Source: Treponema sp. (GTDB lineage: Bacteria; Spirochaetota; Spirochaetia; Treponematales; Treponemataceae). Taken from it: a stretch of DNA of 64,000 nucleotides. The translations under genes and the position numbers were made by a program. The notes under the pieces are model-generated. The model was not told the DNA's origin and did no database searches. It worked only from the letters and a program-made list of their open reading frames with translations. Shown one piece after another: positions 1 to 15,153 of this stretch (positions are counted from its first letter, which is position 1; every line of letters starts with the position of its first letter). The stretch is taken from positions 34,030 through 98,029 of the forward strand of contig JAGAZO010000018.1 in NCBI GenBank assembly GCA_017940005.1, in the 5' to 3' direction.

Positions 1-1714
1 ATTTTTGCCGCAAAGTTTCAATATCTTCAATTTTATAATTATTCGACTTAAAAAGCATTATAAAAGTACAACAGAGTTTTATGAACTCGGAAAAATATTT
101 ATTGCTTTTGCTCGCATACACCGTGTTGAAAATGTCCGTAAAATCGTGTGATTTGAATTCCACTCCGTTTGCAAGCATCAGCTCTTCCAGCTTTGTAAGC
201 AAAATTCCTTCCGAACTGTAATAGGAATAAGTTTCAATCAGTTTGGTGTTGTTCTCCTGATGAAACACCCGCTTCCACTGAATGCCGTCCAAGTATTTCT
301 TTTCCTCAACAGCAGAAAGCCACGGAACGGTAAAATCTTTTGAAACGCCGAAATGCTCCAAGTAAATGTCGTAATCGGTAAGATAAAAATCGGGGCGGTA
401 TGCCTTACGCATCGGGTCATCGCTTTCAAACGGATAGAGTTTTTCATACTCATAATTGATACCATGCATAAAAAGGAAGTTTGCGATTTTTGTTTCCTCA
501 ACGCTTTTTACCCGCTCGTTGTTCAGCGTGGTGTATGACTTTGCCCGTTCAGCCCCAGTTTCTCGGATATAGTTTTCGCGGTCATATTTTGATTTAAGCG
601 TTTCAAGGTCGGCGGTCTTTTCTTCCTCATACAATTCGCCAAGAGAGGAATAACTTTCCATGTTGTCGGGGATTTCAAGAAAGTAGGTGAAGTATTCCGT
701 CAAATCTTTTATCAAGTCAAGGTGATTCAAAAGCTCGTTCTCAAAAAAATCGTGTACGAATCGGCTCAGTTCGTTTTCATCGCACACTTTTGGGTACTTG
801 CTGTCTGCTGTTTTGATTATGTCAAGACCAAGTTTGTGAAAGGTTGTCGCTTCGGCGGAAATTCCGAGTTTATTCTGAATACGTTCCGTCATTTCCTCTG
901 CTGATTTTCTCGTGAATGAAATAAGCAGAATGTCTTTCGGATTTACCTTTTTTACTTCGTACAAATATTTGACTTTTGCGGAAATCGTGAGCGTTTTTCC
1001 GCTTCCCGCGCCCGCAAGCACCAAAATCCTATCCTCGTCTGTAATGACCGCCCGCCGTTGCTGTTCGTCCAAAGATTTTCCGTCGATATTTAAAAACAAA
1101 TCATCATATTTCATTGATTCGTTCTGAATGAAATTTTCATTTGCTGTCTCGAAATAATTATGAAGTGATTTGAAAACAGTTTTGAAGCGTTCAACTTCCG
1201 AAAATTCATCATCATTTTTGCGGACATCTGTTTTTTCCGCGTTTTGCGTAAGATAATTCCATTTTTGATTAAAACCGATTTCAAGTGAATGAGAAACATA
1301 CTGATTTGTCATTTCAAAGAGTTCGGTAAAAAATTGAGCGATTTGTTCAGAGAGAATTTTTATTTCTTCTTTTCGCTTGATTTCTGCGTTTGAGTCTGAA
1401 ATGATTTTGTGGAGATGTTTGTAGGTTTCCTTGAACTGAACAATTTCGGCCAATGCAACAGACTTTTTGGGAATGTGATATTTTGTGACTTCCGAATATA
1501 ATGCTTGCCATTTTGCGATAAAATCAGTTTCTTCAAATTCAGTAACGATGCGCGTTCTTAATGCAAAATATTCAGTGAAAAATGCTTGTATCTGTTCTTG
1601 GAAATACTGAATTTTCTGTGTGAGTTCTTGAGCCAACCATTTTTGTCGCTTTGCATGGAGAATTGCCAGAAAAATAAATATCACGACAACGGCAGGGATA
1701 AGAAAGTAAATCAT
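1..1714 (-). CDS. UvrD/HelD (helicase IV)-like SF1 helicase with N-terminal TM helix and inserted PD-(D/E)xK-like nuclease domain; 3' end runs off the window
   Basis: Manually translated open frame from ATG at 1714 to the edge: MIYFLIPAVVVIFIFLAIL (TM), LDEQQRRAV (Q motif), LAGAGSGKT (Walker A), LISFTRKSA (Ia), TFHKLG (Ib), then NYEYEKLY..YRPDFYL..IYLEHFG. Confidence 0.9.
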   Translation of the reverse strand, partial: MIYFLIPAVVVIFIFLAILHAKRQKWLAQELTQKIQYFQEQIQAFFTEYFALRTRIVTEFEETDFIAKWQALYSEVTKYHIPKKSVALAEIVQFKETYKHLHKIISDSNAEIKRKEEIKILSEQIAQFFTELFEMTNQYVSHSLEIGFNQKWNYLTQNAEKTDVRKNDDEFSEVERFKTVFKSLHNYFETANENFIQNESMKYDDLFLNIDGKSLDEQQRRAVITDEDRILVLAGAGSGKTLTISAKVKYLYEVKKVNPKDILLISFTRKSAEEMTERIQNKLGISAEATTFHKLGLDIIKTADSKYPKVCDENELSRFVHDFFENELLNHLDLIKDLTEYFTYFLEIPDNMESYSSLGELYEEEKTADLETLKSKYDRENYIRETGAERAKSYTTLNNERVKSVEETKIANFLFMHGINYEYEKLYPFESDDPMRKAYRPDFYLTDYDIYLEHFGVSKDFTVPWLSAVEEKKYLDGIQWKRVFHQENNTKLIETYSYYSSEGILLTKLEELMLANGVEFKSHDFTDIFNTVYASKSNKYFSEFIKLCCTFIMLFKSNNYKIEDIETLRQK

Positions 1715-1734
1715 AAAATCTCTAGCATTCGGGT

Positions 1735-2322
1735 TTAGAAAACGGAATCTTGTTCATCTTCAACTATATCTGCATTGTTAAAATAATAATAAAGCACAAG
1801 ATGCCCTGAACCTTCATAAAGTCCGCTATCTGCAATACATTCCAAAGCGACAATATTAAGATTGTCTGCTAATGCTGTGGTCTTTGCCCATACGGCAGAA
1901 AGTTCACGAGAACCTTCTTTTAATGTATAAAACCAATTTTCATCTTTTTGATAATATGATGATAACGAACTATCAATTTTATTATTGATTTTTGGTTTGC
2001 CATAAGTTTTTGCTATCCTGTCTTTTACATTAGTAAAAGCGTTTTGAAGTTCCGTGCCGTATTTATTTGTGGCGATAGTTGCAGACATTGCCCGAATCTG
2101 ATACAAACCAGTTTTTTCATTTACATACGCAGCATAATATTTAAAGAGTGGGTGACTTTTTATTGGCTTTATCAAATAAATACCATCCTCTAAAAATGAT
2201 GGTTCTTCCTCACACGCTTTTTCGATTTCTTCAATAGTCATTCCCATCTTCAAACCAAAGGGAGCGGCAAATGTCAAAGCGGAAATAATCCCGAAAATAA
2301 AAACAAAAAGTATTTTCTTCAT
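1735..2322 (-). CDS. Secreted hypothetical protein
   Basis: 195 aa ORF with signal peptide MKKILFVFIFGIISALTFA; ends 20 bp before the helicase start. Confidence 0.8.
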   Translation of the reverse strand: MKKILFVFIFGIISALTFAAPFGLKMGMTIEEIEKACEEEPSFLEDGIYLIKPIKSHPLFKYYAAYVNEKTGLYQIRAMSATIATNKYGTELQNAFTNVKDRIAKTYGKPKINNKIDSSLSSYYQKDENWFYTLKEGSRELSAVWAKTTALADNLNIVALECIADSGLYEGSGHLVLYYYFNNADIVEDEQDSVF

Positions 2323-2592
2323 TCAATTTTTTCCTTAATCAAATATGTTTTTATTATACCACAAAATTATTAGAATTCGTATCATCATTGCGAGCGTTCA
2401 AGAATTTTCACTATCTCACCGCTCATCAGCCCTACATCCTGATTAGTATCGCGCATGTCCTGTAGCACAAATTCCTCGTCCGCCCACCACAGCTCCGTGC
2501 GTCCCTATCCAAGCAGAATGTGAATAAAACTTAAAGAGGTGCTTGCCGTCTGTTCTTCAATGGAGTATCTTCAAAGATAAGGAATTTTACCG

Positions 2593-2649
2593 ATGAGAAA
2601 ACTGATTGCGTTTTTGCGGGGCGTAACATCGACAGGGGAAAATAGATAA
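2593..2649 (+). pseudogene. N-terminal remnant resembling DUF1697 family
   Basis: MRKLIAFLRGVTSTGENR* resembles the DUF1697 start (xxxIAxLRGxNxxGxN); stops after 18 codons. Confidence 0.4.
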
Positions 2650-2783
2650 ATTCATACAGTGCAGCTTTTCCGATTTTGATAACCTTTATCGTATCCTCAT
2701 CCATTGTTTACCCATTCTACTGCAAGACACCGCCGATTTCCATTCACCCCATCGTCAACCGCGACATTTCCACAGGCGCAGAT

Positions 2784-4031
2784 TTACAATTCCTTTTTCA
2801 AAATCCGATTCACTTTTTCGGCATCAAAGCAGTCTAAATCAATGTCGCTTTTGCCAAGCCAAGCCTTGTAGTTTTCATAGTCCTCACCTGATTTTTTTGC
2901 GAATGCCCTGCGAATGTCACTCAGCCCGCCGATTCCGCCACAATCTTCTATGATGCCAAGCCCTTCGCCAGAAAGTGCCTGCGGTTTTCTCAGCGGCGAT
3001 TGCACTTCTGCATTTTCAAGCTTCAGTTTGAATTCCCAGCCGTCGCCAAAGTCATAGAAAAAAGTACATTCGGGAATTTCTGTTGAGATACAGTTTTTGA
3101 TTTTCATGTGATATGCTTCGCATCGCTTTGGCGGAAGTTGCTTAAGATTATTCAGCATAAACATATCGTCCATAAAATCCATTTGCTCATCTACATAACT
3201 TTCAAGCTCAAGGTTGCGGACATCCTTAAGCCGCTCTTCCATCTGCTCCGCAGTGAGCCTTTGATTTTTAAGCGAGACTTCCATCAGCTTACGCACGGGA
3301 ATTTCAAAACGATACAGATGAGAATTGTCCGCATTGAACAATATCATAAGCACAAACGCCATATCCTCCATGCTTGCGCTGGGGGAAATCAAAAAACGTC
3401 GCCATATTTTCGGCGTGGAGCCTTTCAGTTCTGCATAAAACTGATACAGTGTATGCAGTTTTTTCTCAAGGCGCAACGGCTCATCAGGAACAGGCTTTTT
3501 CATTGTGTCAGAAGTTATGAATCTTTCCGGGAAAATACAGTCACCTGCCTCTGTTGCGGCGCAATTATATGGCATTTTGTTTATATGGTCATCTACAGAG
3601 AAACGAATTTCTTGCTTGTCGATGCCGCCTAAAAACCGTATTCTAAAGGGCAGCCGCTCTTTCATTCCTCTCATGCTTCCCTGCACGCTGCGACTGTTCG
3701 TCTTGGAAAATACAACGTGCTGAAAATGGGGTGCAATATGTTCCGTGAAAACCGCCGTCACATTTTTGTGATTACAGTAATCCTGCAATTCTTGATTTAC
3801 ATGTGCCAAGAATTTTTCCTGCGAAACGATTTCCTCCGCCGGAAAGATAACCGAAAAAAGCGAAAACGCATTCGTCACCAAAAAATAGTTTCTGCCGTTG
3901 GCATCGTTGAACATATCAACAAACCAGTCGCAATATCGGTTCTCTGCCTTTGCATTTTGGGAAAGCGTGATGTTGCCATATTCCGCAGCAGCTTTTGTGC
4001 ATCTAAAAACCATACGCATAGTATAGCACAT
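2784..4031 (-). CDS. Plasmid pRiA4b ORF-3 family protein with an extra N-terminal domain
   Basis: PKIWRRF, HLYRF, FFYDFGDGW, EDCGGIGG motifs; true start probably 4019 or 4013. Confidence 0.8.
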   Translation of the reverse strand: MCYTMRMVFRCTKAAAEYGNITLSQNAKAENRYCDWFVDMFNDANGRNYFLVTNAFSLFSVIFPAEEIVSQEKFLAHVNQELQDYCNHKNVTAVFTEHIAPHFQHVVFSKTNSRSVQGSMRGMKERLPFRIRFLGGIDKQEIRFSVDDHINKMPYNCAATEAGDCIFPERFITSDTMKKPVPDEPLRLEKKLHTLYQFYAELKGSTPKIWRRFLISPSASMEDMAFVLMILFNADNSHLYRFEIPVRKLMEVSLKNQRLTAEQMEERLKDVRNLELESYVDEQMDFMDDMFMLNNLKQLPPKRCEAYHMKIKNCISTEIPECTFFYDFGDGWEFKLKLENAEVQSPLRKPQALSGEGLGIIEDCGGIGGLSDIRRAFAKKSGEDYENYKAWLGKSDIDLDCFDAEKVNRILKKEL

Positions 4032-4319
4032 ACCGTGCGTTTTTGCATGGCTATTTTGAAGCTTGTCGACACCGCGCCGTTGATTTCAACGCCCTGTTGA
4101 TGAGCCGCGTTTTGCGCCCGCAGATTCTCTGCTTCCCACAAATACCTGTCTCAAAAGCGTCAGATTGGCAAACTCATTGCCATTTTTCTACTGAACTTTC
4201 CGCAACACCCCGTTGGCAAAGAACACTGCACGAGGTCGCGCGGCTGACCACCGCTGTGCACGGACGCGTGACAGCGGTGACCATTTTTTGAGGGAGCAAA
4301 CGGTGGGAAGAGCCGCCCT

Positions 4320-4500
4320 TCCAGCCTTCGCTTACGCTTATCCTCCTCGTGTGCCGTTGGCGTCGTAAGCGGCGGTCGGGCTACTCGTGAGTTCGCAAAG
4401 CGAACTCGTACACAAACGGCTTTGCTGTTTGTGCGTTCCGCTAACCGCGCTCCATTGCTCCACGATGTTCCGCAACGGCTATGCCGCTTTCCGTATCCCT
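4320..4500. repeat. GC-rich palindromic REP-like intergenic element
   Basis: Hairpins such as GAGTTCGC-AAA-GCGAACTC and CACAAACGGC..GCTGTTTGTG, at the end of the low-GC ASCH operon. Confidence 0.5.
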
Positions 4501-4517
4501 AATGTGGAGAAAAGAAT

Positions 4518-4886
4518 TTATAAATAAACAAATGACTGTGGTGCTGTTTTTAATCCATAATCTGATAAATCTCTAGGAGGCGAGAAAGTTTTGACATTCC
4601 CCAAAACATATGCATGTGCAATATCCCTATTTGAAAAATAATTAAAATATTTTTCTTTACAAATACCAGCCAATTCTTTTGTTTTATTCCAGAGATTCAC
4701 TGGCGTCTCTGAAATTACGCCTTCCACTTTAACAGCCCCTATTACTTTCATTTGTGGAAAAGTAGAATAAACAAGAATTTCATCAACATTTTTTTTCGCT
4801 ATCTGTCTACGAAATTCATATTTTTTTATTCCTTGCATTATTTTAGTTGAGTATTCTGGTTTTATCGACAATAGTATTCTACACAT
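4518..4886 (-). CDS. ASCH domain protein
   Basis: ILLSIKPEY..KKYEFRR..ILVYSTFP..VIG signature; start overlaps the upstream stop by 8 bp. Confidence 0.85.
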   Translation of the reverse strand: MCRILLSIKPEYSTKIMQGIKKYEFRRQIAKKNVDEILVYSTFPQMKVIGAVKVEGVISETPVNLWNKTKELAGICKEKYFNYFSNRDIAHAYVLGNVKTFSPPRDLSDYGLKTAPQSFVYL

Positions 4887-6411
4887 TGTTTTCTTCTATA
4901 AAAGTTATTTTTGTTTGTGAATCTCGCAAGATATTCCTAAATTGCTCATCTGATATTCTTGTAAAAGGTCTAGGACCATTTGAGGCTGGTATTATATTAC
5001 GATTCCATAAGTATTCAAGCGTTAATCGTTTAGTTAAACTCTTGACAAAAATAAAACGCAACACTAATAAATTTTTGCTATGGTTATTCCAAAAACCGTC
5101 TAATTCAGCTTTTGAGAAAACGCTTCTGTTTTGACAAGTTGCAAGAAATTCTTCTTTATTTCTAAAACCAAATCTGATGTTATCTACTATTCCAACAGTC
5201 GATAAAACCGATTCGTATTTTTTTCGACCATGATTTTCTGCCATTCGATAAAAAACAATTAAATCTCCTGGTTTAATATTTCGTTCTGGAGACCAAGAAA
5301 TATAAACTTTTTGTAGTGCATAGCGATGAGGTTCTTTTCCGAGAAAATCTATTTCATTTTCTGTATTAAGTTTCGAATCAGGCAATAAATTTGTATGATA
5401 TTTCGCATATATAGGTAAGATGAATTTTTGTCGCTTTCTAAATAGAATATTTGGGTAGTTTTGTTTAACAGATAATTGAGAATCATATACTTTCAATTTC
5501 TTTACAAAAACAACCTCCTCTTTTTCATTCGATTGTTTTATACCATACCTATAGAATCCCCATACGGTCAATAAATCTTCAAGTGCTTTTAATTCAGGCC
5601 TGTCTTCAAAAAGGGTAACATATATTTCATCAACATTTCGTTCCAATGCATTATCAAAAATTATTTTTATAAAACGCTCTCCCAAGCGAAAGCCAGAGGT
5701 TTCAATCTTAAAGGTTCCTATTTTCAATCTCTTTTTTGGTTGAAAAACAGGCTTTATGTCCGAATAATTTTCTGTTTCATTTTCAGTTTTTATGTATAAG
5801 AAACCTAGTATATCAGATTTATCGGTTCGACAAATATAAATTTCTTCATTGCTTTTCTTTGCAAACCAATTATCAAATCCAGAATAAGCAACTCTAAATG
5901 TATCAAAAAAAGAATCTTTTACATTAATATTTCCAAAATAATCTTTTTTTACGGCAAGCATTTTATAGCTTATTAAATCAGGATTTTCCGCTGTACATTT
6001 AGATATAAAATCATTGATAGACAAAACCCTTGAACGAAGCGAAAACAATTCGCTCCGTTTTCTTAAATTCTTATCTTCTGTTATTAAAATATCGACCCGA
6101 TTACAATACACTTCATAAAGTAACTGATTATCTATTTTGTCATTTTGGGATTTTTCTTCTGGCAATTTAGATTTAAAGTCATCGGATTGAGTTGCAATTG
6201 TTTGCAAGGTTATATATGCAGGAAGTTTAGCGTCGTATAATGACTGCATATTATTATCTTGAAACTTCCGCAGTTCTTGTTCAGAGTACGGATGAATGCA
6301 TTTTTCATAGTTTAACTTATCAAGCCAATAGAATAGAAGTCCAATTCCATAATTTGAAGCCGTAGTGTTTTCACAATGAATAATAATGTTTGTGTCAAGC
6401 AGAGCTTTCAT
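4879..6411 (-). CDS. PIN nuclease - GNAT acetyltransferase - ASCH/EVE(PUA-like) fusion protein
   Basis: LLDTNIII..LITEDK (PIN); GFLYIK..LKIGTFKI..GERFIKIIF..EIYVT..WGF (GNAT); KVYISW..IKPGDLIVFYR (PUA-like). Confidence 0.85.
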   Translation of the reverse strand: MKALLDTNIIIHCENTTASNYGIGLLFYWLDKLNYEKCIHPYSEQELRKFQDNNMQSLYDAKLPAYITLQTIATQSDDFKSKLPEEKSQNDKIDNQLLYEVYCNRVDILITEDKNLRKRSELFSLRSRVLSINDFISKCTAENPDLISYKMLAVKKDYFGNINVKDSFFDTFRVAYSGFDNWFAKKSNEEIYICRTDKSDILGFLYIKTENETENYSDIKPVFQPKKRLKIGTFKIETSGFRLGERFIKIIFDNALERNVDEIYVTLFEDRPELKALEDLLTVWGFYRYGIKQSNEKEEVVFVKKLKVYDSQLSVKQNYPNILFRKRQKFILPIYAKYHTNLLPDSKLNTENEIDFLGKEPHRYALQKVYISWSPERNIKPGDLIVFYRMAENHGRKKYESVLSTVGIVDNIRFGFRNKEEFLATCQNRSVFSKAELDGFWNNHSKNLLVLRFIFVKSLTKRLTLEYLWNRNIIPASNGPRPFTRISDEQFRNILRDSQTKITFIEENNV

Positions 6412-6475
6412 TGATTATTCCCACCCAAAAATCAACTATTTAATTATAATCCCACGATGATAATAAGTCAATTGT

Positions 6476-7282
6476 TTAACCTTTATTGTTATAATATAAT
6501 GGACTCAAATCATCATGTTCTTTTAGCCATTCATAGTAAGTATCGATTTCAGGTTCTCTAAGATTAATAGCAAATTCAATACCACGAATGATGACTACGA
6601 AATACACAATCGCCAGAATAACATCATCTATTTCTCCTGTCTTTATCAATAAAAAATCACATTCATAAACTTTCTGAACTTTTTTCCCCTTTAGGATTTC
6701 GGATTTTTCCATATCATATACTCTGCGTATGCTGCATGGCCAATTCGTTGGTGTACCCAAACGAGCATGGTTTCTAATCAAGTCGTAATTATCGTCATCT
6801 ATAATCTCATCAAGACTATTTGATATATCTTTTAATTTAAATGCCCAAAACTCTAAAGCCATTTTAGCTATCATACGAGAAATCGTGATACTATTTTCAA
6901 TTTTAGTTTCATTTGTAAATATAGGAATCGATAATTTGCCATTTCCATTTTTAACAATATTGTCAAAATCTTTACTAGACATTATACGGAAACAAAAAGG
7001 CTCCTTATCATCAAAAGATATTGATACTCTCTCACTATTAAAAGAAGCATCAAAAACTGCGGCTCTCCCTTTTTTATTAAGAAGAGATTCATATGCTCGC
7101 CAGAGTTTTATATTATCTATATCCATGAATGGTTTTTCTACTTTTCTAGCAAAAAAATTATTACATTTATCACAAACATATCCTAAAGGAAGAATTAATT
7201 TTTTATTCCCCATCGATTCTGGTATGATATGCTCAACACTTCTCGTATTTGACGAATCTTGCTTACAAAATAAACAACGCAT
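6476..7282 (-). CDS. HNH endonuclease (N-terminal HNH plus uncharacterised C-terminus)
   Basis: CLFC..SVEHIIPESMGN..VCDKCNNFF motif. Confidence 0.85.
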   Translation of the reverse strand: MRCLFCKQDSSNTRSVEHIIPESMGNKKLILPLGYVCDKCNNFFARKVEKPFMDIDNIKLWRAYESLLNKKGRAAVFDASFNSERVSISFDDKEPFCFRIMSSKDFDNIVKNGNGKLSIPIFTNETKIENSITISRMIAKMALEFWAFKLKDISNSLDEIIDDDNYDLIRNHARLGTPTNWPCSIRRVYDMEKSEILKGKKVQKVYECDFLLIKTGEIDDVILAIVYFVVIIRGIEFAINLREPEIDTYYEWLKEHDDLSPLYYNNKG

Positions 7283-7544
7283 AAGTTATAGAATAAACAA
7301 ATATTTGACTTTTGCCTAGTTTCGACACAGATTCCCTACAACCGTCTTTCAATAATCCCTTCAAACTGTGGGCGGCGGCGATGTTGGCAATCATCTCAAA
7401 CGATGGCAGAGTTTTTCCACATTCTATGTCGCCGATTGTGCCTGTTGCACAATCGCACGCTTCTGCCAGTTTCTCTTGCGAAAACTCTTTCTCATTTCTG
7501 TAATACTTTAAATTTTTAACAAATTCTTCTTGTAAAACAGTCAC
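7263..7544 (-). pseudogene. Truncated XRE-family HTH regulator
   Basis: GTG start, FVKNLKYYRNEKEFSQEKLAE..TIGDIECGKTLPSF; C-terminus loses similarity and runs into the HNH start. Confidence 0.6.
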
Positions 7545-7645
7545 AATTCCAATTTTATTGACCACACAGGGAAGACCCCATGTCCACAAACCTTTCCAAA
7601 TTGCGCCATACGACTGCTCTCGCAGAGCCCATCAGATCTCAACAA

Positions 7646-7951
7646 TCACATCTCCCGCAACAAATCCAGTATGACGTATTTTTGCTTTTCGTTTAGCCTG
7701 TTCCATTCGTGCAAAAGTTCTGACTGCGATTGAGTGAGCGTGACAACGTCCGCAAAATCATCAGTAAAAAATTGGGCGAGCGTAATACCAAATGCAGCAC
7801 AGATTTTTTCTACCGACGGAATAGTGGGAATCTGCTTTTTTCTGTACCACGAAGAAATAGTCGATTGCGGCACGCCTGATTTTTCTGCCAGTTGGTATTC
7901 CGTCCAATTCCGCGCTATTCGATATGCTCTTATTTTTTCCAATACATCCAT
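7646..7951 (-). CDS. XRE-family HTH transcriptional regulator
   Basis: IRAYRIARNWTEYQLAEKSGVPQSTISSW..PTIPSVEKICAAFGI. Confidence 0.9.
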   Translation of the reverse strand: MDVLEKIRAYRIARNWTEYQLAEKSGVPQSTISSWYRKKQIPTIPSVEKICAAFGITLAQFFTDDFADVVTLTQSQSELLHEWNRLNEKQKYVILDLLREM

Positions 7952-8160
7952 ACTGCTACGCTATTGCGTATATACTACTTGCTTTTAGCATTGCAAAATA
8001 ATGTTTTTTGACGTATAATATTATCGCTTAAAATAAGTAATCAACAGGATGATATAAGACTTGGGAAATTTTCCCATCTTATCATAGGGAGTTTAGCTCA
8101 AGACAAAAGTTCGTGAAGCACATATTATTTTTAGAACAACAGCAAACGGAGGTATAAGAA

Positions 8161-9160
8161 ATGAAAAAAATAATGAGCGTGGTACGAGTTCTGCTCGTAC
8201 TTGCCCTTGCGCTCGCAGCGGTTGCCGCGTGCAAGCACCCGAACAACAGTGACGACGACAAGGACACACCGAGCGGACCGACGGCGCCCACTATTCCAGA
8301 GACAGTTCCGACCGCAACACGAATAAAAGACGGCGAAGGCAACGACACCGAGTGGGTACAGCTTTCAAGCGGCACCTTTCAGATGGGAAGCACCAGTACG
8401 AATGCACAAGACAACGAAAAACCAGTCCATGCCGTCGGTTTAAGTTCATTTTTAATCTGTGATCACGAGGTAACGCAAAAAGAATATGAAACGTATTGCA
8501 GTTACAGCTCATTACCTATTCCATCTACCAAGAAGGGTAAAGGCGATACGTTTCCAGCGTATTTTGTGAGCTGGTATGACGCAATCGTCTATTGCAATCT
8601 GCGGAGTACAGCAGAAGGGCTTGAGCCATGAAACCGATGTCACCAAGTGGGCTGACATACAAGAAACCAGTGGAAAATACTGCGGCCCTGCAAGTAGTAA
8701 CGCTACATGGGATGGCATAACGCCCAACTGGGACGCAAACGGCTACCGTTTGCCCACAGAAGCGGAGTGGGAATGCGCTGCGCGCGGTGGAGAAACCGAC
8801 ACGGATACGGACGTGTGGGCAGGCACCACCGACAGTACAAAGCTCGGCGACTACGCCTGGTACAAGGACAACAGCAGCGAAAAAGCGCACGAAGTGATGA
8901 AACTAAAGCCGAACGGCTACGGATTATACGACATGAGCGGGAACGTGTGCGAATGGTGCTGGGACCGGTACGGTGACTACACGGCGGCTGCGGAGGCAAA
9001 CCCGACCGGCGCTGCGGGTGGTTCGGGCCACGTCTTCCGCGGCGGCGGCAGGGCCATCTCTGAGGCCGCCGCCGCGCGTGCGTCGTGTCGGGAGAAGATA
9101 ACTCCCGAGAGCAGATACGCCTTCATTGGCTTTCGCCTTGCTCGCTCCTGTTCTAATTAA
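8161..9160 (+). pseudogene. Frameshifted lipoprotein with formylglycine-generating enzyme (FGE/SUMF1, CLec-fold) domain
   Basis: Lipobox AVAAC; GTFQMGS..EKPVH..HEVTQ..VSWYDAIVYCN in 8161-8631; YRLPTEAEWE..YGLYDMSGNVCEWCWD..GFRLARS in 8576-9160; frame break at about 8630. Confidence 0.85.
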
Positions 9161-9318
9161 ACACGGCGCGTCAGTCAGCGGAAGAAACCCGTGAACAAGA
9201 TGAAGAATCAGGAGGAAGATTCTCTTGCCCAACCTATGAGTGAAGTGAAAAATCAGCTTAAAAGCGCATTCGGTCAAGCATGTGGCGGAATGTTCGGGAA
9301 GAAATGAGGAGGAAAATT

Positions 9319-10032
9319 ATGAATGAAAAAGAAATCACAAAGCATGTTCATGCCTTTTACGATTTTATAAAAAAAGATTCCCAACATCGTTATAAGTCTT
9401 GGGAACATTGCTACGCATTTTTCTATGAGCATCACAATAGATTATGCAAAGCAGATATATTAGATAAAGCGGCGTTACATCTTGGAATGTACCTTGCAAG
9501 CTGGGGAATGTTCAGAGGTTCGGGCGGTCTTTTGTGGAAAGATTATACGATTTATAAAGACTTATTGGTAAGAGTTCAGCCGTTGCTTTTTAAGGATGAA
9601 CCAAAAGAATTATCTGACGTAATTGGAAATTTTTTCAATTCTGTAAAAGTAGAAAAAGCAGACAAGATACACAATCCTCCCGAGAATATTGAAGATATTG
9701 ATATAGAAAAAACAGAAGGGAAAAACATAAAGCCGACAATTACACTTGTTTCAAAAATTATGCTTGGTCTTGATGCTTCCTGCACTGCGTTAGATGAATA
9801 TGTCTGCAGCGGAATTGAAAAAAGCTGTAAATGCAAGAATTTTTATCAGAACCCGTATACAGAAATTCCAAATGCATTAGCTGAAGTCAAAAAATTCTAT
9901 GATGAACATAAGCAGGAATTTGATGAGTTGCAAAACGATATACAACTGGAACTGGATTGCGGTGCACAAATTCCCTATCCGCCCATAAAACTGCTTGATA
10001 TGTATTTCTTCCAGATTGGGGAGAGAAAATAA
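9319..10032 (+). CDS. Conserved-looking hypothetical alpha-helical protein
   Basis: RBS GAGGAGG then ATG at 9319; motifs RYKSWEHCY, LHLGMYLASWGMFRGS, KLLDMYFFQIG. Confidence 0.75.
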   Translation: MNEKEITKHVHAFYDFIKKDSQHRYKSWEHCYAFFYEHHNRLCKADILDKAALHLGMYLASWGMFRGSGGLLWKDYTIYKDLLVRVQPLLFKDEPKELSDVIGNFFNSVKVEKADKIHNPPENIEDIDIEKTEGKNIKPTITLVSKIMLGLDASCTALDEYVCSGIEKSCKCKNFYQNPYTEIPNALAEVKKFYDEHKQEFDELQNDIQLELDCGAQIPYPPIKLLDMYFFQIGERK

Positions 10033-10123
10033 TCAAAAAAGCATGGGCACCGCCGATGCATCCGACATCGCGGGAACACACGTGGCGCTCTTAGTCGTGC
10101 GCCCCGTCACATTCCCGCGATTT

Positions 10124-10318
10124 TCAGCAAAAGTACCGTACACTCAAGTTTTTACCACGCAAATGGAATATCACGTCTTCTTTCAATTCGGGTTCCCTAA
10201 AGTCGGCATTTTCTGAGCACACATCAGCAAGAATTGTTTTAAATGTATCTCTGCAGTAATAAGCACGAAGTCCGTTTTCGGTTGCAGGGTTTTCTAATTG
10301 TGCACATGTTAATTCCAT
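10124..10318 (-). CDS. Small ORF or truncated gene coupled to the restriction endonuclease stop
   Basis: 64 aa; ATG overlaps the REase stop at 10318; no family recognised. Confidence 0.35.
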   Translation of the reverse strand: MELTCAQLENPATENGLRAYYCRDTFKTILADVCSENADFREPELKEDVIFHLRGKNLSVRYFC

Positions 10319-11088
10319 TATTTCAATGCTTTAAATTTTGCAAAATATGCATCAATTTCATCGCCCATTTCTATACCGACTTGTTCAAAACAATCCAACA
10401 AAGTTTGATATGCACCTTCGCCACCAAGAAAGTCCCAAAATTCTTCGGCAACTTTTAGTTCTTCCTGCAAATCGAGCATGCCACGCATTGTCCAACGGGC
10501 GTAAGGTTCGGGAGCGTAAGGATTATATGGAATGGCAATGCCCGTGTTAATTTTTGCACTGGGGTTTTCAGCGAGCGTGACAGCAACCCATTCAAGTAAT
10601 GTACGTTTGAATTGCTTAAATTCGTTGGAATTCGGTTTTGCAGATTTTATATCAAAGAAATATAATTCCCCAGATTTTGACTTTACCAGCAAATCAACTT
10701 TTGTCGGCTTGATAGTGTGCATTTCTCCAGATTGACAAACTGCACGGATTTTTTCAATTTCGTCGTGCTTTGCGGGCACGGTTGCGGCAATGTTCAGTCC
10801 ATCGACAATATCTTGAATGACGTGCTGGGAAAGCTCGCTGATTTTATTGTTCGGTGTGAACTGCTTTTTGCTTTCTGCAAAGGTGCTCTGGCCAAGTGCA
10901 AGTGCAACAGGTTCAAAAATAGTTGTTCCAAAATTCGTACATAGTGAATGAATGAAAGAATACAATGCAAGCCTATCCGCTCCTAATAAGCGCGTATGAA
11001 ATGGCATTACGCCTGGTTCTGGATTATATTTTGAAAACTTATTGCGTAATGCAGTCCGCAAAATTTCCTTTATTGCTTCTGTATTCAT
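10318..11088 (-). CDS. Type II restriction endonuclease, TdeIII/MjaII family
   Basis: MPFHTRLLG.DRLALYSFIHSL.TNFGTTIFEP; KVDL..FDIKSAKPN; PYNPY; adjacent to the MTase. Confidence 0.85.
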   Translation of the reverse strand: MNTEAIKEILRTALRNKFSKYNPEPGVMPFHTRLLGADRLALYSFIHSLCTNFGTTIFEPVALALGQSTFAESKKQFTPNNKISELSQHVIQDIVDGLNIAATVPAKHDEIEKIRAVCQSGEMHTIKPTKVDLLVKSKSGELYFFDIKSAKPNSNEFKQFKRTLLEWVAVTLAENPSAKINTGIAIPYNPYAPEPYARWTMRGMLDLQEELKVAEEFWDFLGGEGAYQTLLDCFEQVGIEMGDEIDAYFAKFKALK

Positions 11089-11089
11089 T

Positions 11090-12676
11090 TTACAACTCCT
11101 TGAAATGGAAAATTGTTTCAGAATACGCATTTTTTGCTTTTTCAGTGCGATTCAAAACAGGACGCTCGTAGCGATTGACGATTCTCATCCTCGCTTTTTC
11201 GGCAATGTGCGGATAGAGATTGTATTTGTCATTCGCGACTAAAAACACATTGTAGTCGTCGGCAAGATAGTGTTTGCAATGTGAAAGCACAGCCGCAATC
11301 CCTTCAACATAGGCGGCGCGTGCATCAAGCGTTTGCCCATTGCGCAACGGTCCGATTTCCTGTATATCATGACGCGGAAAACTAAACAGTTCATATGTGT
11401 AGGCGTGCTGTTCGTGATAGTCGATAAGTCCCACATATGGTGGTGAAGAAAAGATGCCCCGTATTTTTTGCGCGCTCATTACGTTGTAGAGCAATTCATT
11501 TTTTTCTCTCAACGCTGAAAGCAAATCGATAGTGCGGCTATCACCAGTCAAACAGATTTGTGCAGTGTTCGTTCGTAATTGACTAAACTGATATAAGCGT
11601 TTCACTGTATCTTTGCTGTAAGTACTCCACCATTTTGTTATAGAAAAAAGCGGCTTACAGATTTTGTAATGTTTAGTGCAGTAATAGGTCGTTTTTACAG
11701 GCTCCAACAGCGTCGCAAGGTCAGAATGGGTAGTCGCACGGCAGGAACGCATTGTTCTGCTTAAAATTACCCTGAGCACATTGCAAATTTTTGCATCGGC
11801 AACTGCGTTGATAAGGTCGCGCATAAGATACAACTCGCTTCGTATACTCGGCAAAAACCATTTTGTGATAAATGATTTGTCGTCAGTTTCAAGCGAGATA
11901 CCGTATTTTTCTATCAGCGCAGTATATGTCGGCAAAAATTCATCAACCTTTTGCTTGCTGTATGTTTTTTCATCAATCGTCTTGGTACGAATTGCATATT
12001 TATAATCATACGCAGAAAAATAGTGCGTATTAAAAGCGTTTAATGCGTCCTGCAACGCTGTATCAAAAGCAGCAAGCATCGTCTGGTTGTAATACTCCTG
12101 TAACTTATGCGTGATGTAGTCGATTTTTTGTTCAAGAGCGAGCATATCCATATCGGCAAGTTTACAGTTTGCAATGAGCGTGTTAAAAAGCGAAACATCA
12201 ATGCCAACTGCGTGCAAGCCGAGTTCGTTTGCTTGTACAAGCGTAGTGCCGCTCCCGCAAAACGGGTCGAGCACAATATCTCCCGCCTTAAAATATGATT
12301 CTTTCTTGAAAACATCAGTATGCATGTCTAAAAAATATTCCACCAACTGCGGAATGAACTTGCCTTTGTATGGGTGCAAGCGATGAACATGCTTGGTTGT
12401 TTCGGCTTCGGTGCAATTTGAAAACGACAGCGCCCAGTTTAGACGTTCGTCTTTCCATTTATTTTCGGTGTATTTTTGATTTTGCTCATAATAGTCCTTG
12501 AGTTCTGCAAGCGAAACCGCGGGAGCGCCGTTTGCGTCGCGTTTTTTGATGAGCGCGTATTGAATGAGGTAGCTGATATTGCTATTAGAAACAGGCTTTT
12601 GTAAAAAAGCAGTTGCCCAGCGACTTGCTTCGGGAATAGTAAGCAGGTCTTTTGTAGCGGAGTTTTCACTAATCAT
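11090..12676 (-). CDS. N4-cytosine/N6-adenine DNA methyltransferase (M.MjaII/TdeIII-like) with N-terminal HTH-like extension
   Basis: HRLHPYKGKFIPQL, DPFCGSGTT (motif I), SPPY (motif IV); about 530 aa. Confidence 0.9.
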   Translation of the reverse strand: MISENSATKDLLTIPEASRWATAFLQKPVSNSNISYLIQYALIKKRDANGAPAVSLAELKDYYEQNQKYTENKWKDERLNWALSFSNCTEAETTKHVHRLHPYKGKFIPQLVEYFLDMHTDVFKKESYFKAGDIVLDPFCGSGTTLVQANELGLHAVGIDVSLFNTLIANCKLADMDMLALEQKIDYITHKLQEYYNQTMLAAFDTALQDALNAFNTHYFSAYDYKYAIRTKTIDEKTYSKQKVDEFLPTYTALIEKYGISLETDDKSFITKWFLPSIRSELYLMRDLINAVADAKICNVLRVILSRTMRSCRATTHSDLATLLEPVKTTYYCTKHYKICKPLFSITKWWSTYSKDTVKRLYQFSQLRTNTAQICLTGDSRTIDLLSALREKNELLYNVMSAQKIRGIFSSPPYVGLIDYHEQHAYTYELFSFPRHDIQEIGPLRNGQTLDARAAYVEGIAAVLSHCKHYLADDYNVFLVANDKYNLYPHIAEKARMRIVNRYERPVLNRTEKAKNAYSETIFHFKEL

Positions 12677-12918
12677 TAAAAGCGAGCGTAGCATTTTTTA
12701 GGGAAAAATAAAAGTAGGCGAAGTTTCACATTTTCTTTTCCGATATGCCGAGCGGATTTATCATTGCAGTACATTCATTCACAATCTGGGAAATTTTCCC
12801 GTTTTGTTTAGATTTACCCGCTCATGACAGGCTCAGTAAGCAGCTCTATACTAGAATATGCATCCCGCAGGTGCGCAGGCGGGACAGCGACATCTCTATA
12901 TACAGGAGCAAGAAATTT

Positions 12919-13353
12919 ATGTCTTTGGAAAAATGGAAAACAGCATCTGTTTTCACAAAAGTAGCGACAGCGTGCGTAGTGCTGAGCGCACTTGTCGGAC
13001 TTATTATCGGCTTTATCACACTGGATGCCCTTGAGGATGCATTTGGGCTGCTCAATTCATTCATTTCTGATATCCGCCCGATGCTTGTCGTCTATCTACT
13101 CGTCTACTACTTGATAGACATTATTGTTGCCATCGGGCTGCTGTTCATTAAGAACTGGGCAAAATCGCTTGCAACATGGTGGGGCATCCTTGCTGCTGTA
13201 AGCATGGTGCTTGCAATAAAAGAGCCACATGCATTGTTCGTCTCATATATTTTGAGCATCGCTGCGGCAGTCTGCCTTTTCTTGGGGAAAGAAGATTTTC
13301 CGCAAAAACGTGCACACGCTGAAAGGGGGCAACATGAATCGTACGATAGGTAA
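12919..13353 (+). CDS. Four-TM membrane protein
   Basis: RBS AGGAG before ATG 12919; four hydrophobic segments. Confidence 0.75.
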   Translation: MSLEKWKTASVFTKVATACVVLSALVGLIIGFITLDALEDAFGLLNSFISDIRPMLVVYLLVYYLIDIIVAIGLLFIKNWAKSLATWWGILAAVSMVLAIKEPHALFVSYILSIAAAVCLFLGKEDFPQKRAHAERGQHESYDR

Positions 13354-13663
13354 ACGCGGCAACATGCTGTTGCTCGTTACAGTGCTTGCAGCAGGGACGC
13401 TCTTTGCCGCAGGCAGCCGTAAGCAAATTGACACCTTTTTGGCTGACTATGAAAAGATTGTCGTAAAAGCGGAAAAAGCGGCGGAAAACGGAACCATGCT
13501 TTCGCTTATATCGTTGCAAGCAGAAGCGGCAAAGCTGGTAGAGAAGTCAGACAAACTCAAGGATATGAGTGACTGGACGGAAGCAGACAGTGTAAAATAT
13601 CTGAAGCTTACCGAACGTTATATGACAGCGATTACAAAACTTTCAGGCTCGCTAACCCCATAA
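13334..13663 (+). CDS. Secreted small helical protein
   Basis: Signal peptide LLLVTVLAAGTLFA; overlaps the upstream gene. Confidence 0.7.
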   Translation: MNRTIGKRGNMLLLVTVLAAGTLFAAGSRKQIDTFLADYEKIVVKAEKAAENGTMLSLISLQAEAAKLVEKSDKLKDMSDWTEADSVKYLKLTERYMTAITKLSGSLTP

Positions 13664-13764
13664 TGCTGATACTATTTTCTCCGACATTTATGGCGGGGAA
13701 AATAGCATAAACAGCGGGGCATTGTAAAATATTTTTAAGAAAATGAAGAAAACAGGAGGAAGAT

Positions 13765-14379
13765 ATGGCATATAAGACATGCGACTGGTGCGGGAGAACG
13801 TATAAACCCATGCTCTCTGCTGACAGGGACGCGGGCAATGCATTTGCAGATGCAATGGGATTAACACTCGGTGTAAAAGCCGTTGGCGGAATTGCACGCC
13901 TTGCAGGGCATCGAAATTTTTGCAGCAGACAATGTAAGCTCGCTTATGAGCAATCTAAAGGAGACGGAAGTGCTAATGACACAACTACAAAGGGTGGCAC
14001 GATAACCCAAAAAGCGGTCGAGGCACAGGCAAGAGCTGCAGAAGATGCCGCAGAACGGGCAAAGGTAGAAGCAATCAAAAATACTGTGTTTTCTAATGAT
14101 GATGCGGCTTTCGCGAAAGAAATCTATGGCTTTATCGCAGACTATAAGGCTTCCGTAAAAGAGCATGATGCCATCCGTACAGCATATAAAGAAAGACTTG
14201 CAAAGGAGTTTTCCGTTCTTAAAATGACTAATCCTGAACGCTATCAGAAATATAATCCCGCGTACGAGGAAGTTCAACAGTATTTTAAGAAGCGATTGAA
14301 GCGAAGTGTTATTATTTATGTGTCGGTGATAGTCGCATTAGTAGTAGCCTTTGTGCTATCTTTACAGTTAATCGAATAG
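13765..14379 (+). CDS. Hypothetical protein with N-terminal Zn-finger-like motif and C-terminal TM anchor
   Basis: CDWC..FCSRQC; terminal VIIYVSVIVALVVAFVLSL; RBS AGGAGG. Confidence 0.75.
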   Translation: MAYKTCDWCGRTYKPMLSADRDAGNAFADAMGLTLGVKAVGGIARLAGHRNFCSRQCKLAYEQSKGDGSANDTTTKGGTITQKAVEAQARAAEDAAERAKVEAIKNTVFSNDDAAFAKEIYGFIADYKASVKEHDAIRTAYKERLAKEFSVLKMTNPERYQKYNPAYEEVQQYFKKRLKRSVIIYVSVIVALVVAFVLSLQLIE

Positions 14380-15100: not shown

Positions 15101-15153
15101 TTCTTTCTTTACTGCCATATCCTATTAAAAAATCATACTATAACGCGCTTTGT

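What the first reader, a model, noticed from the sequence alone, without database searches (positions are those of the whole stretch)
4518..7282. HNH + PIN-GNAT-ASCH + ASCH operon: candidate acetylation-based nucleic-acid conflict or defence system
Seen: three co-oriented, markedly AT-rich genes (about 30% GC by eye, versus about 45% in the core). The last two overlap by 8 bp, and the operon sits in a defence island beside an R-M system. Established: PIN domains are RNases, GNATs are acetyltransferases, and ASCH/EVE are PUA-like nucleic-acid binders. The E. coli ASCH protein YqfB hydrolyses N4-acetylcytidine. Inference: a writer/reader-eraser/effector module in which the GNAT acetylates RNA, DNA or protein, ASCH reads or removes the mark, and PIN/HNH cut. 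I know of no experimental characterisation of this three-gene arrangement.
Basis: partly seen in the sequence, partly recalled or inferred. Interest (0 to 1): 0.8.

Follow-up and report, generated by a model that had tools for sequence, protein, structure and literature searches.

The report
PIN-GNAT-EVE/ASCH cassette with HNH add-on
The three AT-rich genes are a horizontally acquired copy of an already catalogued but never tested candidate anti-phage module (PIN-GNAT-like-EVE protein plus ASCH protein, PADLOC "PDC-M11"), here in a variant with an extra HNH nuclease that proves to be a recurrent, dedicated add-on of such modules.

Summary
Three intact minus-strand genes lie at 6476-7282 (HNH), 4879-6411 (A) and 4518-4886 (B). 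A and B overlap by 8 bp. Each gene has 30% GC, against 44% for the window.

The core is not new. A and B match PADLOC PDC-M11A and PDC-M11B over their full length (E 5e-192 and 1e-43). This is the "(PIN)-GNAT-EVE + ASCH" operon described by Matelska 2017 and Bell 2020 (who credit Iyer 2013). I found no experimental test of it.

- **The HNH link is real.** Of 28 metagenomic HNH-family loci with 3 kb or more on both sides, 19 carry an A and/or B relative within 3 kb, in many gene orders. The reverse is rare: 0 of 20 other Spirochaetota A loci have the HNH.
- **B belongs to the ZmASCH family** (E 3e-23), an in-vitro single-stranded RNase. It keeps the S7/K21/E24/R26 set described for ASCH N4-acetylcytidine deacetylases.
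- **A's middle domain has a GNAT fold** but lacks the canonical acetyl-CoA motif A. Even so, it holds most of the family's invariant polar residues.

Verdict: a new variant of a known, uncharacterised candidate defence module. The acetylation mechanism remains plausible but unproven.

The parts
7263..7589 (-). Proximal XRE-family HTH gene, the likely regulator of the cassette. The real start is probably the GTG near 7538. The 3' third has diverged from the orthologous cassettes and the ORF runs 20 bp into the HNH start.
   Evidence: Pfam HTH_3 on residues 27-73. It is 78% identical over residues 19-73 to the HTH directly upstream of the HNH in L005. Nucleotide homology to L005/L018 covers 7370-7557 only.
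6476..7282 (-). HNH_5 nuclease core (residues 1-55: Cys4 zinc site C3/C6/C37/C40, H18, N41/N42) followed by a ~210-residue C-terminal domain with no matched fold. Accessory nuclease of the cassette.
   Evidence: Pfam HNH_5 E 6e-13. Family invariants. AlphaFold pLDDT 91.2, pTM 0.89. No Foldseek match at E<=1e-3 in PDB or BFVD. Linkage to A/B.
6443..6471 (-). Sigma-70-like promoter (TTGACT, 17-nt spacer, TATAAT) in the HNH-A intergenic gap, followed by a GGGTGGGA ribosome-binding-site-like stretch before the A start codon.
   Evidence: Consensus scan, 11 of 12 matches; sequence read. This is a consensus match only, with no transcription data.
5977..6411 (-). Protein A, residues ~1-145: PIN nuclease domain, with D6, E46, D94, D107 and the T111-E112-D113 motif intact.
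   Evidence: PIN_4 in 56 of 67 homologues, best E 1e-5. Invariant acidic residues. Alternating strand/helix pattern in the model.
5482..5964 (-). Protein A, residues ~150-310: GNAT-fold domain without the canonical motif A. It carries most of the family's invariant polar residues (Y176, W182, K208, E210, K230, K235, Y264, T266, E299).
   Evidence: Foldseek top 50 hits are almost all GNAT-type acetyltransferases, best E 9e-7, target TM-score up to 0.70. phrog_13728 'acetyltransferase' on 155-302, E 7e-22. Conservation across 113 representatives. Motif A absent (sequence ETSGFRLGERF).
4879..5454 (-). Protein A, residues ~320-510: EVE-like (PUA-like) beta-barrel domain, a presumed reader of a modified base or nucleotide; K368 is invariant.
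   Evidence: Pfam EVE in 39 of 67 homologues, best E 9e-4; own E 0.14. phrog_30943 on 317-505. Classified as EVE by Bell et al. 2020.
4518..4886 (-). Protein B: stand-alone ASCH protein of the ZmASCH / PDC-M11B family, overlapping A by 8 bp (consistent with translational coupling). Invariant K21, E24, R26, Y40, W66, P116-Q117; S7 and S118 nearly invariant.
   Evidence: PADLOC PDC-M11B E 1e-43. Pfam ASCH. The family profile hits ZmASCH 5GUS at E 3e-23 over its full length. Invariants. A natural A-B fusion exists, P0241.
7646..7951 (-). Second XRE-family HTH gene upstream. This is context only; its membership in the cassette is not shown.
   Evidence: Pfam HTH_3 E 5e-14. Only 25% identical to the cassette HTH of L005, and outside the block of nucleotide homology.

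Best explanation
The locus is a horizontally acquired, intact, XRE-associated copy of the (PIN)-GNAT-EVE + ASCH conflict module (PADLOC candidate PDC-M11). It is a minority variant that carries a dedicated HNH_5 nuclease.

Shown:
- Family membership of A and B.
- A and B are kept as an adjacent pair in almost every relative, and are fused into one protein in some.
- The HNH family lives mostly next to such modules.
- The block HTH-HNH-A-B recurs in a different genomic context.

Inferred mechanism:
1. A and B form one sensor-effector complex.
2. Their two PUA-like pockets (EVE in A, ASCH in B) bind a modified base. The most likely ligand is an N-acylated or otherwise modified nucleobase, in RNA or DNA or as a released nucleotide.
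3. The strongly conserved GNAT-fold domain of A transfers, or at least binds, an acyl-type group.
4. B, which has the K-x-x-E-x-R pocket of ASCH amidohydrolases and belongs to the family of the RNA-cleaving ZmASCH, removes or processes the mark or the RNA.
5. This balance gates the nucleases. PIN acts on RNA and the add-on HNH acts on DNA.

The outcome would be restriction of phage or other invading DNA, or growth arrest of the infected cell.
For: - **Identity.** PDC-M11A at E 4.7e-192 over 1-505 of 501 profile positions; PDC-M11B at E 1.3e-43. The literature describes the same architecture and ASCH partner.
- **A-B pairing.** B is adjacent in L001-L004 and in 19 of 20 other Spirochaetota loci. 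The genes overlap by 8 bp. P0241 is a natural fusion, 47% identical to B, E 1e-35.
- **HNH linkage.** The nearest HNH relatives (72%, 59%, 58% and 43% identity) all sit by an A+B pair, in three different gene orders. Of 28 well-flanked metagenome loci, 19 have an A and/or B relative within 3 kb. More than 20 gene orders occur. A Rhizobium plasmid shows the same neighbourhood. HNH also sits beside variants with a canonical GNAT domain.
- **Unit of transfer.** Positions 4518-7282 are 80% identical at the nucleotide level to L005/L018, together with the proximal HTH, in a different flanking context in L005. All three genes have GC 0.30, the lowest in the window. A occurs in only 26 of 401 genomes of the phylum and in none of 20 listed same-genus genomes.
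- **Catalytic sites.** The PIN acidic residues are intact. The HNH Cys4/His/Asn residues are invariant. The invariant polar residues concentrate in the GNAT-fold domain. B has K21/E24/R26/S7 and the Tyr47/Ser128 equivalents of ZmASCH.
- **Defence context.** Type I restriction-modification genes lie next to A-B in L002 and L004 (ORF lengths and N-termini only; no domain scan was run). A type II system lies 3 kb away here. PDC systems were defined by being embedded in restriction-modification, BREX or DISARM loci.
Against: - No member of the A family has been tested, and I found no phage-protection or toxicity data.
- The GNAT-like domain lacks motif A (Q/R-x-x-G-x-G/A). Matelska et al. conclude that it probably does not acetylate.
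- B shows no sequence-level hit to YqfB or EOLA1 at E<=10, so the deacylase idea rests on a short motif.
- The reported ZmASCH RNase activity has no identified metal site.
- HNH is absent from 20 of 20 other Spirochaetota A loci, so it is not needed for the core function.
- A strong promoter-like site separates HNH from A-B.
- No transcription data exist: only DNA metagenome runs hold the sequence.
- The proximal HTH has a diverged 3' end, so regulation here may be impaired.
Confidence: 0.55

Rival explanations
1. Type II-like toxin-antitoxin module. The PIN (and/or GNAT-like) part of A is a growth-arresting toxin and the small ASCH protein B is its neutralising partner. The cassette mainly stabilises the island or causes persistence. 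HNH is a passenger.
For: Matelska 2017 classes these PIN domains as VapC-like potential toxins, and Bell 2020 files the operons under toxin-antitoxin systems. The gene pair is small and translationally coupled. HTH-ASCH fusions occur in alpha-proteobacteria. Distribution is patchy and mobile.
Against: A and B are fused into one polypeptide in some genomes, and ASCH is also fused N-terminally to A in ~620-aa forms. That is unusual for a labile antitoxin. B has invariant enzyme-like residues and its relative ZmASCH is a monomeric nucleic-acid-binding enzyme. The most conserved part of A is the GNAT-fold domain, not the PIN. PIN-less GNAT-EVE forms still keep B.
Confidence: 0.2
2. [quoted passage not shown] The GNAT domain writes an acetyl mark on a base of host DNA or RNA. 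EVE and ASCH read or erase it. PIN and HNH destroy nucleic acid that lacks or carries the mark.
For: GNAT fold. Invariant putative catalytic residues in that domain. B carries the K/E/R(+S) set of ac4C-deacetylating ASCH proteins. HNH-linked variants add a canonical GNAT with motif A intact in five of the six variants read (L070 degenerate). The module is embedded in restriction-modification loci.
Against: Motif A is absent from A's GNAT-like domain (and the sequence). HNH, the only obvious DNase, is missing from most A loci. Phage-borne GNAT-EVE + ASCH pairs without any nuclease exist. No acetylated DNA base is known in bacteria, to my knowledge.
Confidence: 0.15
3. The HNH gene is an independent single-gene nuclease (for example a type IV-like or solitary defence nuclease). 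It merely shares defence islands with PDC-M11 and has no functional tie to A and B.
For: It has its own reading frame with a promoter-like site between it and A. Solitary copies exist (P0146 and P0158 contexts; 9 of 28 well-flanked loci). A loci usually lack it.
Against: 68% co-location within 3 kb, often with 0-4 bp gaps or overlaps and in many permutations with the K, X, A and B genes. This holds from 35% to 72% identity and across Spirochaetota, Bacillota and Alphaproteobacteria. Several 'solitary' copies still sit beside AAA_17-like or GNAT/ASCH variants. GC content is identical to A and B.
Confidence: 0.1

Closest known systems
PADLOC phage defence candidate PDC-M11 (A+B), from Payne et al. 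2024, bioRxiv 10.1101/2024.01.29.577857 (PDC set defined by embedding in RM/BREX/DISARM loci)
   Same: Both proteins match the family HMMs over their full length (E 4.7e-192 and 1.3e-43). The order and co-orientation are the same and the genes overlap.
   Different: PDC-M11 is defined as two genes and is untested. Here an HNH_5-CTD nuclease and an XRE regulator travel with it. The copy is not embedded in a type I restriction-modification system; it lies 3 kb from a type II system.
(PIN)-GNAT-EVE + ASCH operons (Bell, Wolf and Koonin 2020, PMC7641849, who credit Iyer et al. 2013, NAR 41:7635) and the PIN_15/PIN_17 groups (Matelska et al. 2017, PMC5499597)
   Same: PIN, then a GNAT-like domain, then a PUA-like/EVE fusion, with a separate ASCH gene. 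Defence-island setting and sporadic distribution.
   Different: Those papers name an AAA_17 ATPase and HTH-ASCH fusions as accessories. The two I could read (Bell 2020, Matelska 2017) do not link an HNH nuclease to this system. This locus has no AAA_17 gene and none of the ~340-aa 'X' gene seen in relatives. Iyer et al. 2013 was not available to check.
ZmASCH from Zymomonas mobilis (PDB 5GUS/5GUQ; Kim et al. 2017, PMC5615036)
   Same: The B family profile aligns to it end to end at E 3e-23. The Tyr47 and Ser128 equivalents (Y40, S118) are conserved.
   Different: ZmASCH was studied alone as a Mg-dependent single-stranded RNase. Its operon context was not discussed and I could not check its neighbours. 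The Lys53 position is shifted by one residue in B.
YqfB / EOLA1 ASCH N4-acetylcytidine amidohydrolases (bioRxiv 10.64898/2026.08.01.741249)
   Same: B has S7, K21, E24 and R26 at the same positions as the EOLA1 catalytic set. K21, E24 and R26 are invariant in the family.
   Different: No detectable sequence-profile match to the PDB entries for YqfB or EOLA1 at E<=10. Activity is unknown. This is a motif resemblance, not demonstrated membership.
Septu PtuB (HNH nuclease partner of the PtuA ATPase)
   Same: Weak HMM match limited to the HNH core, residues 2-74 (E 3.6e-4).
   Different: There is no PtuA. The C-terminal ~210 residues are unrelated. The partners here are GNAT/PUA-like proteins.

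Membership tests
PADLOC PDC-M11 | Protein matching a PDC-M11A HMM | tested here: met
   PDLC04422 E 4.7e-192, residues 1-505 against profile 1-499 of 501
PADLOC PDC-M11 | Adjacent protein matching a PDC-M11B HMM | tested here: met
   PDLC04425 E 1.3e-43, residues 3-122; same strand, 8-bp overlap
PADLOC PDC-M11 | Anti-phage activity | not testable with these tools
   It is a candidate only. No paper in the library reports a test.
(PIN)-GNAT-EVE + ASCH operon | N-terminal PIN domain with the acidic active site | tested here: met
   PIN_4 in 56 of 67 homologues. D6, E46, D94, D107 and E112 are invariant and T111 and D113 nearly so among close homologues. D6, E46, D94, D107, T111 and D113 are each kept in about 65-85% of the divergent representatives (E112 in 54%).
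(PIN)-GNAT-EVE + ASCH operon | Central GNAT-fold domain | tested here: met
   Foldseek against PDB: top hits are GNATs, E 9e-7, target TM-score 0.5-0.7. phrog_13728 acetyltransferase E 7e-22.
(PIN)-GNAT-EVE + ASCH operon | C-terminal EVE (PUA-like) domain | tested here: inconclusive
   Pfam EVE E 0.14 for this protein; 39 of 67 homologues reach E<=1, best 9e-4. hhalign against the ASCH family is not significant. The Foldseek list was saturated by GNAT hits.
(PIN)-GNAT-EVE + ASCH operon | Separate ASCH gene in the same operon | tested here: met
   B is ASCH (Pfam E 1.4e-5) and conserved next to A in nearly all relatives
GNAT acetyltransferases (catalytically competent) | Motif A, Q/R-x-x-G-x-G/A, which binds the acetyl-CoA pyrophosphate | tested here: not met
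   The loop between the fourth strand and the third helix reads ETSGFRLGERF (237-247), and no register fits the motif. This agrees with Matelska 2017. R242, G244, E245 and R246 are nevertheless conserved.
GNAT acetyltransferases (catalytically competent) | Acetyl-CoA binding and acyl transfer | not testable with these tools
   Needs biochemistry. The invariant K208, E210, K230, K235, Y264, T266 and E299 suggest an active site of some kind.
ZmASCH-type ASCH proteins | Full-length homology and conserved nucleic-acid-binding residues (Tyr47, Ser128) | tested here: met
   Profile E 3.2e-23 over 3-122 against 9-132. Y40 is invariant and S118 nearly so.
YqfB/EOLA1 ac4C amidohydrolases | Catalytic K21, T/E24, R26 (plus Ser7) | tested here: met
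   B has S7, K21, E24 and R26. K21, E24 and R26 are invariant and S7 is at least 90% conserved in 24 family members. The residues are as defined.
YqfB/EOLA1 ac4C amidohydrolases | Detectable homology to YqfB or EOLA1 beyond the shared fold | tested here: not met
   Neither the single-sequence nor the profile search of PDB sequences returns YqfB (1TE7, 9KYH) or EOLA1 (5Y7D) at E<=10
HNH endonucleases | HNH core (beta-beta-alpha metal finger) with a zinc-binding Cys4 and the catalytic His | tested here: met
   Pfam HNH_5 E 5.8e-13. C3, C6, H18, C37, N41 and N42 are invariant and C40 is at least 90% conserved.
Septu (PtuA/PtuB) | PtuA ATPase partner and full-length PtuB homology | tested here: not met
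   Only residues 2-74 match PtuB HMMs (E 3.6e-4). There is no PtuA-like gene in the neighbourhood.
Type II toxin-antitoxin pair | Separate labile antitoxin that neutralises the toxin | tested here: inconclusive
   The genes are coupled, but natural A-B and ASCH-A fusions exist. Toxicity cannot be tested here.

The most novel reading that the evidence does not exclude
The HNH_5-CTD / PIN-GNAT-like-EVE / ASCH cassette is an acyl-mark-based immune system. The GNAT-fold domain writes an acyl group on a nucleobase in tRNA, other RNA or DNA, or senses an acylated nucleotide. The ASCH protein, with its K-E-R pocket, erases the mark. The EVE pocket reads it. The write/erase balance licenses two nucleases, PIN on RNA and the add-on HNH on DNA. 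That would be a chemically new self/non-self or danger signal in prokaryotic immunity. It would also make the HNH C-terminal domain, which has no structural match, a dedicated adaptor to this module.
Probability: 0.15. Interest if true: 0.85.

Novelty: new variant of a known kind. Interest (0 to 1): 0.45.

Why it matters
The PIN-GNAT-EVE/ASCH pair is widespread. A full-library search found 1,731 clusters at 50% identity, and the pair is also present in phages (PHROG families). It has been predicted to act in defence or as a toxin-antitoxin pair since 2013, yet its chemistry is unknown.

This locus is a compact, intact, four-gene version with two nuclease outputs. Together with the comparative data it yields three concrete, testable points:
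- The HNH_5-CTD family is a dedicated accessory of these modules, which gives a DNA-level readout.
- The ASCH partner belongs to the same family as a crystallised enzyme (ZmASCH) and carries the catalytic set of ac4C deacetylases.
- The GNAT-fold domain, although it lacks motif A, is the most constrained part of the system.

Resolving whether an acyl mark is written and erased would settle the disagreement between Bell 2020 (who report that Iyer 2013 proposed base acetylation) and Matelska 2017 (a degenerate GNAT).

Tried and rejected
- **Direct family and structure searches for A.** Pfam, NCBIfam and PDB sequence searches of A alone or as a profile gave nothing. The domains emerged only from homologue-wise Pfam scans, PADLOC and PHROG models, and the structure model.
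- **Fold search for the HNH protein.** Searches against PDB and BFVD gave no match at E<=1e-3 despite a pLDDT-91 model. The C-terminal domain stays unassigned.
- **EVE to ASCH link.** hhalign of the A family against the B family, meant to show that EVE and ASCH are related, was not significant (probability 1.3%).
- **RNA features.** Rfam and tRNA scans of 1-16000 found nothing, so there is no tRNA integration site and no RNA component.
- **Transcription evidence.** Only gut-metagenome DNA runs hold the sequence.
- **Iyer et al. 2013.** The paper (PMC3763556) is not held in the library, so I cannot say whether it already noted the HNH.
- **'HNH is just a neighbour'.** This was my first guess, and the linkage counts rejected it.
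- **Septu PtuB identity.** Rejected: only the HNH core matches and there is no PtuA.
- **Single operon from one promoter.** Doubtful because of the intergenic promoter-like site.


Full report
**1. The observation**

- a 268-aa protein at 6476-7282;
- a 510-aa protein (A) at 4879-6411;
- a 122-aa protein (B) at 4518-4886.

A and B overlap by 8 bp. A 64-nt gap separates the first gene from A.

GC content is 0.306, 0.303 and 0.304 for the three genes, against 0.444 for the window. This is the lowest-GC 2.77-kb stretch in the 64 kb.

All three frames are intact and full-length relative to their families.

A TdeIII-type restriction enzyme and an N6/N4 methylase lie at 10318-12694. Two XRE-type HTH genes lie directly upstream, at 7263-7589 and 7646-7951.

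**2. What the genes are**

*First protein (HNH).* It has an HNH_5 core on residues 3-53 (E 6e-13). The Cys4/His/Asn set is invariant in 39 relatives.

*Protein A.* On its own it has no Pfam, NCBIfam or PDB sequence hit. The domains come from other evidence:
- It matches PADLOC PDC-M11A over its whole length (E 4.7e-192).
- Its homologues hit PIN_4 (56 of 67) and EVE (39 of 67).
- PHROG models split it into an acetyltransferase-like part (155-302) and a C-terminal part (317-505).
- An AlphaFold model (pLDDT 83.5) matches GNAT structures (best E 9e-7; the top 50 hits are almost all GNAT-type acetyltransferases).

So A is PIN, then a GNAT fold, then an EVE-like domain. It is the sister PUA-like family, EVE.

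*Protein B.* It is PDC-M11B (E 1.3e-43) and carries an ASCH domain.

**3. The core is already known, as a prediction**

- Bell, Wolf and Koonin 2020 describe '(PIN)-GNAT-EVE' proteins. Their operons 'almost all' encode an ASCH protein and often an AAA_17 ATPase, and they frequently sit beside type I restriction-modification systems. The authors credit Iyer et al. 2013 and state that none of the modules has been characterised.
- Matelska et al. 2017 describe the same PIN-GNAT-PUA operons as PIN_15 and PIN_17. They argue that the GNAT-like domain is degenerate because motif A is missing.
- Payne et al. 2024 generated the PDC candidates from genes embedded in RM, BREX or DISARM loci. They tested other candidates (the HEC series), not the PDC set.
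- Full-text searches for PDC-M11, GNAT-EVE, PIN-GNAT and related word sets found no experimental study.

The family is large. There are 1,731 representative clusters at E<=1e-3. They come in ~500-aa forms, PIN-less ~350-aa forms, ~620-aa forms with an extra N-terminal ASCH domain, and A-B fusion forms.

**4. The HNH gene belongs with the cassette**

I first expected a chance neighbour. The evidence says otherwise.

- The four closest sub-lineages of the HNH family that I looked up (72%, 59%, 58% and 43% identity) all sit by an A+B pair, in three different arrangements: HTH-HNH-A-B, AAA_17-X-A-B-HNH and HNH-X-A-B. The last is from a Bacillota genome. Two lineages at 49% identity showed no A/B pair; for one of them the sequence upstream of the HNH is cut off by a contig end.
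- A metagenome scan with the family alignment returned 80 loci. Of the 28 with at least 3 kb on both sides, 19 (68%) have an A and/or B relative within 3 kb, often with 0-4 bp gaps. More than 20 gene orders involving the K (AAA_17), X, HNH, A and B genes occur.
- Three of those 19 counted loci carry only an ASCH relative, next to variant proteins with a canonical GNAT domain. Three of the nine loci with no A or B hit still place the HNH beside a P-loop (AAA_17-like) gene.
- A Rhizobium plasmid has the HNH converging on an operon annotated 'AAA family ATPase / GNAT family N-acetyltransferase (511 aa) / HTH protein'.
- The family is absent from 50,697 phage records.

The reverse link is weak:
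- None of 20 other Spirochaetota A loci has the HNH within 7 kb.
- None of L001-L004 has it.
- On an A tree the HNH label needs at least six gains or losses. The sampling for that tree is biased, so this shows interspersion, not a rate.

HNH_5-CTD is therefore a dedicated but optional add-on. Its ~210-residue C-terminal domain is confidently modelled (pLDDT 91). It has no structural match in PDB or BFVD.

**5. The unit in this genome**

- Nucleotide homology to L005 and L018 (about 80%) runs uninterrupted from 4518 to 7282. It resumes at 7370-7557 inside the proximal HTH gene. The L005 flanks are different genes. HTH-HNH-A-B therefore recurs as one block in a different context.
- The 3' end of the proximal HTH gene has diverged here.
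- A occurs in 26 of 401 genomes of the phylum and in none of 20 listed same-genus genomes. This fits recent acquisition.
- A near-consensus promoter-like site and a ribosome-binding-site-like stretch precede A. A-B probably can be transcribed without HNH.
- No RNA data exist.

**6. Clues to mechanism**

(a) A and B very likely act as one complex. They are translationally coupled and almost always adjacent. They are fused in P0241.

(b) Across 113 divergent representatives, the residues that never change lie mostly in the GNAT-fold domain: Y176, W182, K208, E210, K230, K235, Y264, T266, G285, F286 and E299. One more, K368, lies in the EVE domain. The PIN acidic residues are kept in only about 65-85% of representatives. 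The GNAT-fold domain is therefore the constrained core, although it lacks motif A (sequence 237-247).

(c) The B family matches the crystallised ZmASCH at E 3e-23 over its full length. It keeps the Tyr47 and Ser128 equivalents. ZmASCH binds nucleic acids and cleaves single-stranded RNA in vitro.

(d) B also has S7, K21, E24 and R26. K21, E24 and R26 are invariant in the family. This is the constellation that a 2026 preprint defines as the catalytic pocket of the ASCH ac4C deacetylase EOLA1 (K21/T24/R26 in YqfB). That preprint notes bacterial relatives in restriction-modification operons beside endoRNases. No sequence-level match to YqfB or EOLA1 was found, so this is a lead only.

(e) HNH-linked variants carry an additional canonical GNAT domain, with motif A intact in five of the six read. 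This keeps acyl transfer on the table for the wider system.

**7. Best reading and rivals**

*Best reading (0.55).* This is a modified-base-sensing conflict module. The EVE and ASCH pockets and the GNAT-fold domain handle an acylated or otherwise modified base or nucleotide. They gate PIN (RNA) and, in this variant, HNH (DNA).

*Rivals.*
- A plain toxin-antitoxin pair (0.2).
- An unrelated HNH neighbour (0.1).

None of the steps beyond family membership, linkage and residue conservation is shown. All activities are inferred.

**8. Novelty**

The A+B core is already known as an untested candidate. The HNH_5-CTD partnership, the shuffled five-gene repertoire (AAA_17, X, HNH, A, B) and the ZmASCH and K-E-R links for B are refinements. 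I did not find them in the papers I could read.

Earlier agent notes of this scan reached the same view of the HNH in other genomes. I saw those notes only after my own linkage analysis. They supplied two references, which I then read.

The locus is a new variant of a known kind. It is worth an experiment and is not categorically new.

Noticed in passing
window 8161-9160 (+): An FGE-sulfatase (SUMF1-like) lipoprotein gene is split into two overlapping frames. ORF 8161-8631 matches profile positions 3-109 and ORF 8576-9160 matches 105-255. This is either a frameshifted pseudogene or an assembly error. GC is 0.50-0.59, well above the window mean.
   Followed up: partly
window 4032-4517: A GC-rich (0.55) stretch of ~490 bp with no substantial ORF lies directly downstream of the AT-rich cassette. 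It contains short imperfect repeats of the type cggaa(a/c)gc...gccgtt. There is no Rfam or tRNA hit.
   Followed up: partly
window 7263-7369: The 3' third of the proximal XRE gene has no counterpart in the orthologous cassettes L005 and L018. About 80 nt seem to be missing, and the ORF reads into the HNH start. The regulator may be damaged.
   Followed up: partly
L022:131-2233, L044:1342-3552, L053:4868-7144, L071:1880-3946, L090:301-2439, L070:10912-12975: Variant partner proteins of ~690-760 aa. Three scanned HNH partners (L022, L070, L047) have a Pfam canonical GNAT domain; L022 combines it with a PIN and an EVE-like C-terminus. L044, L053, L071 and L090 show the same PIN and EVE-like matches, and their N-termini read as GNAT with motif A. 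Each sits beside an ASCH gene and an HNH_5-CTD gene. This looks like a separate subtype of the system.
   Followed up: partly
L006:2805-3833, L009:2797-3825, L013:6869-7795, L127:8527-9606, L138:6361-7356: A recurrent ~310-340-aa accessory protein ('X') with no Pfam match is encoded directly upstream of A in several cassettes. It is often preceded by an AAA_17 P-loop gene. It is absent from this window.
   Followed up: no
P0241 (632 aa); P0254-P0280 (~612-635 aa): Natural fusions exist: A with B at its C-terminus, and forms with an extra N-terminal ASCH-like domain in front of the PIN.
   Followed up: partly
window 2784-4031 (-): A DUF6933 + PRiA4_ORF3 protein with weak matches to PADLOC candidate PDC-S63 (E 2e-5). 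It lies immediately downstream of the cassette on the same strand.
   Followed up: no
window 9280-10032 (+): A 250-aa ORF at GC ~0.36 with no hit in Pfam, NCBIfam or PADLOC, lying between the FGE pseudogene and the TdeIII restriction-modification system.
   Followed up: no
window 4518-4886 (B) vs NCBIfam NF008917: B resembles the C-terminal 'unknown domain' of the 'L22/unknown domain fusion protein' model (E 3e-14, profile positions 191-310). An ASCH domain of this type is therefore fused to a ribosomal protein in some bacteria, which hints at an RNA or ribosome connection.
   Followed up: no
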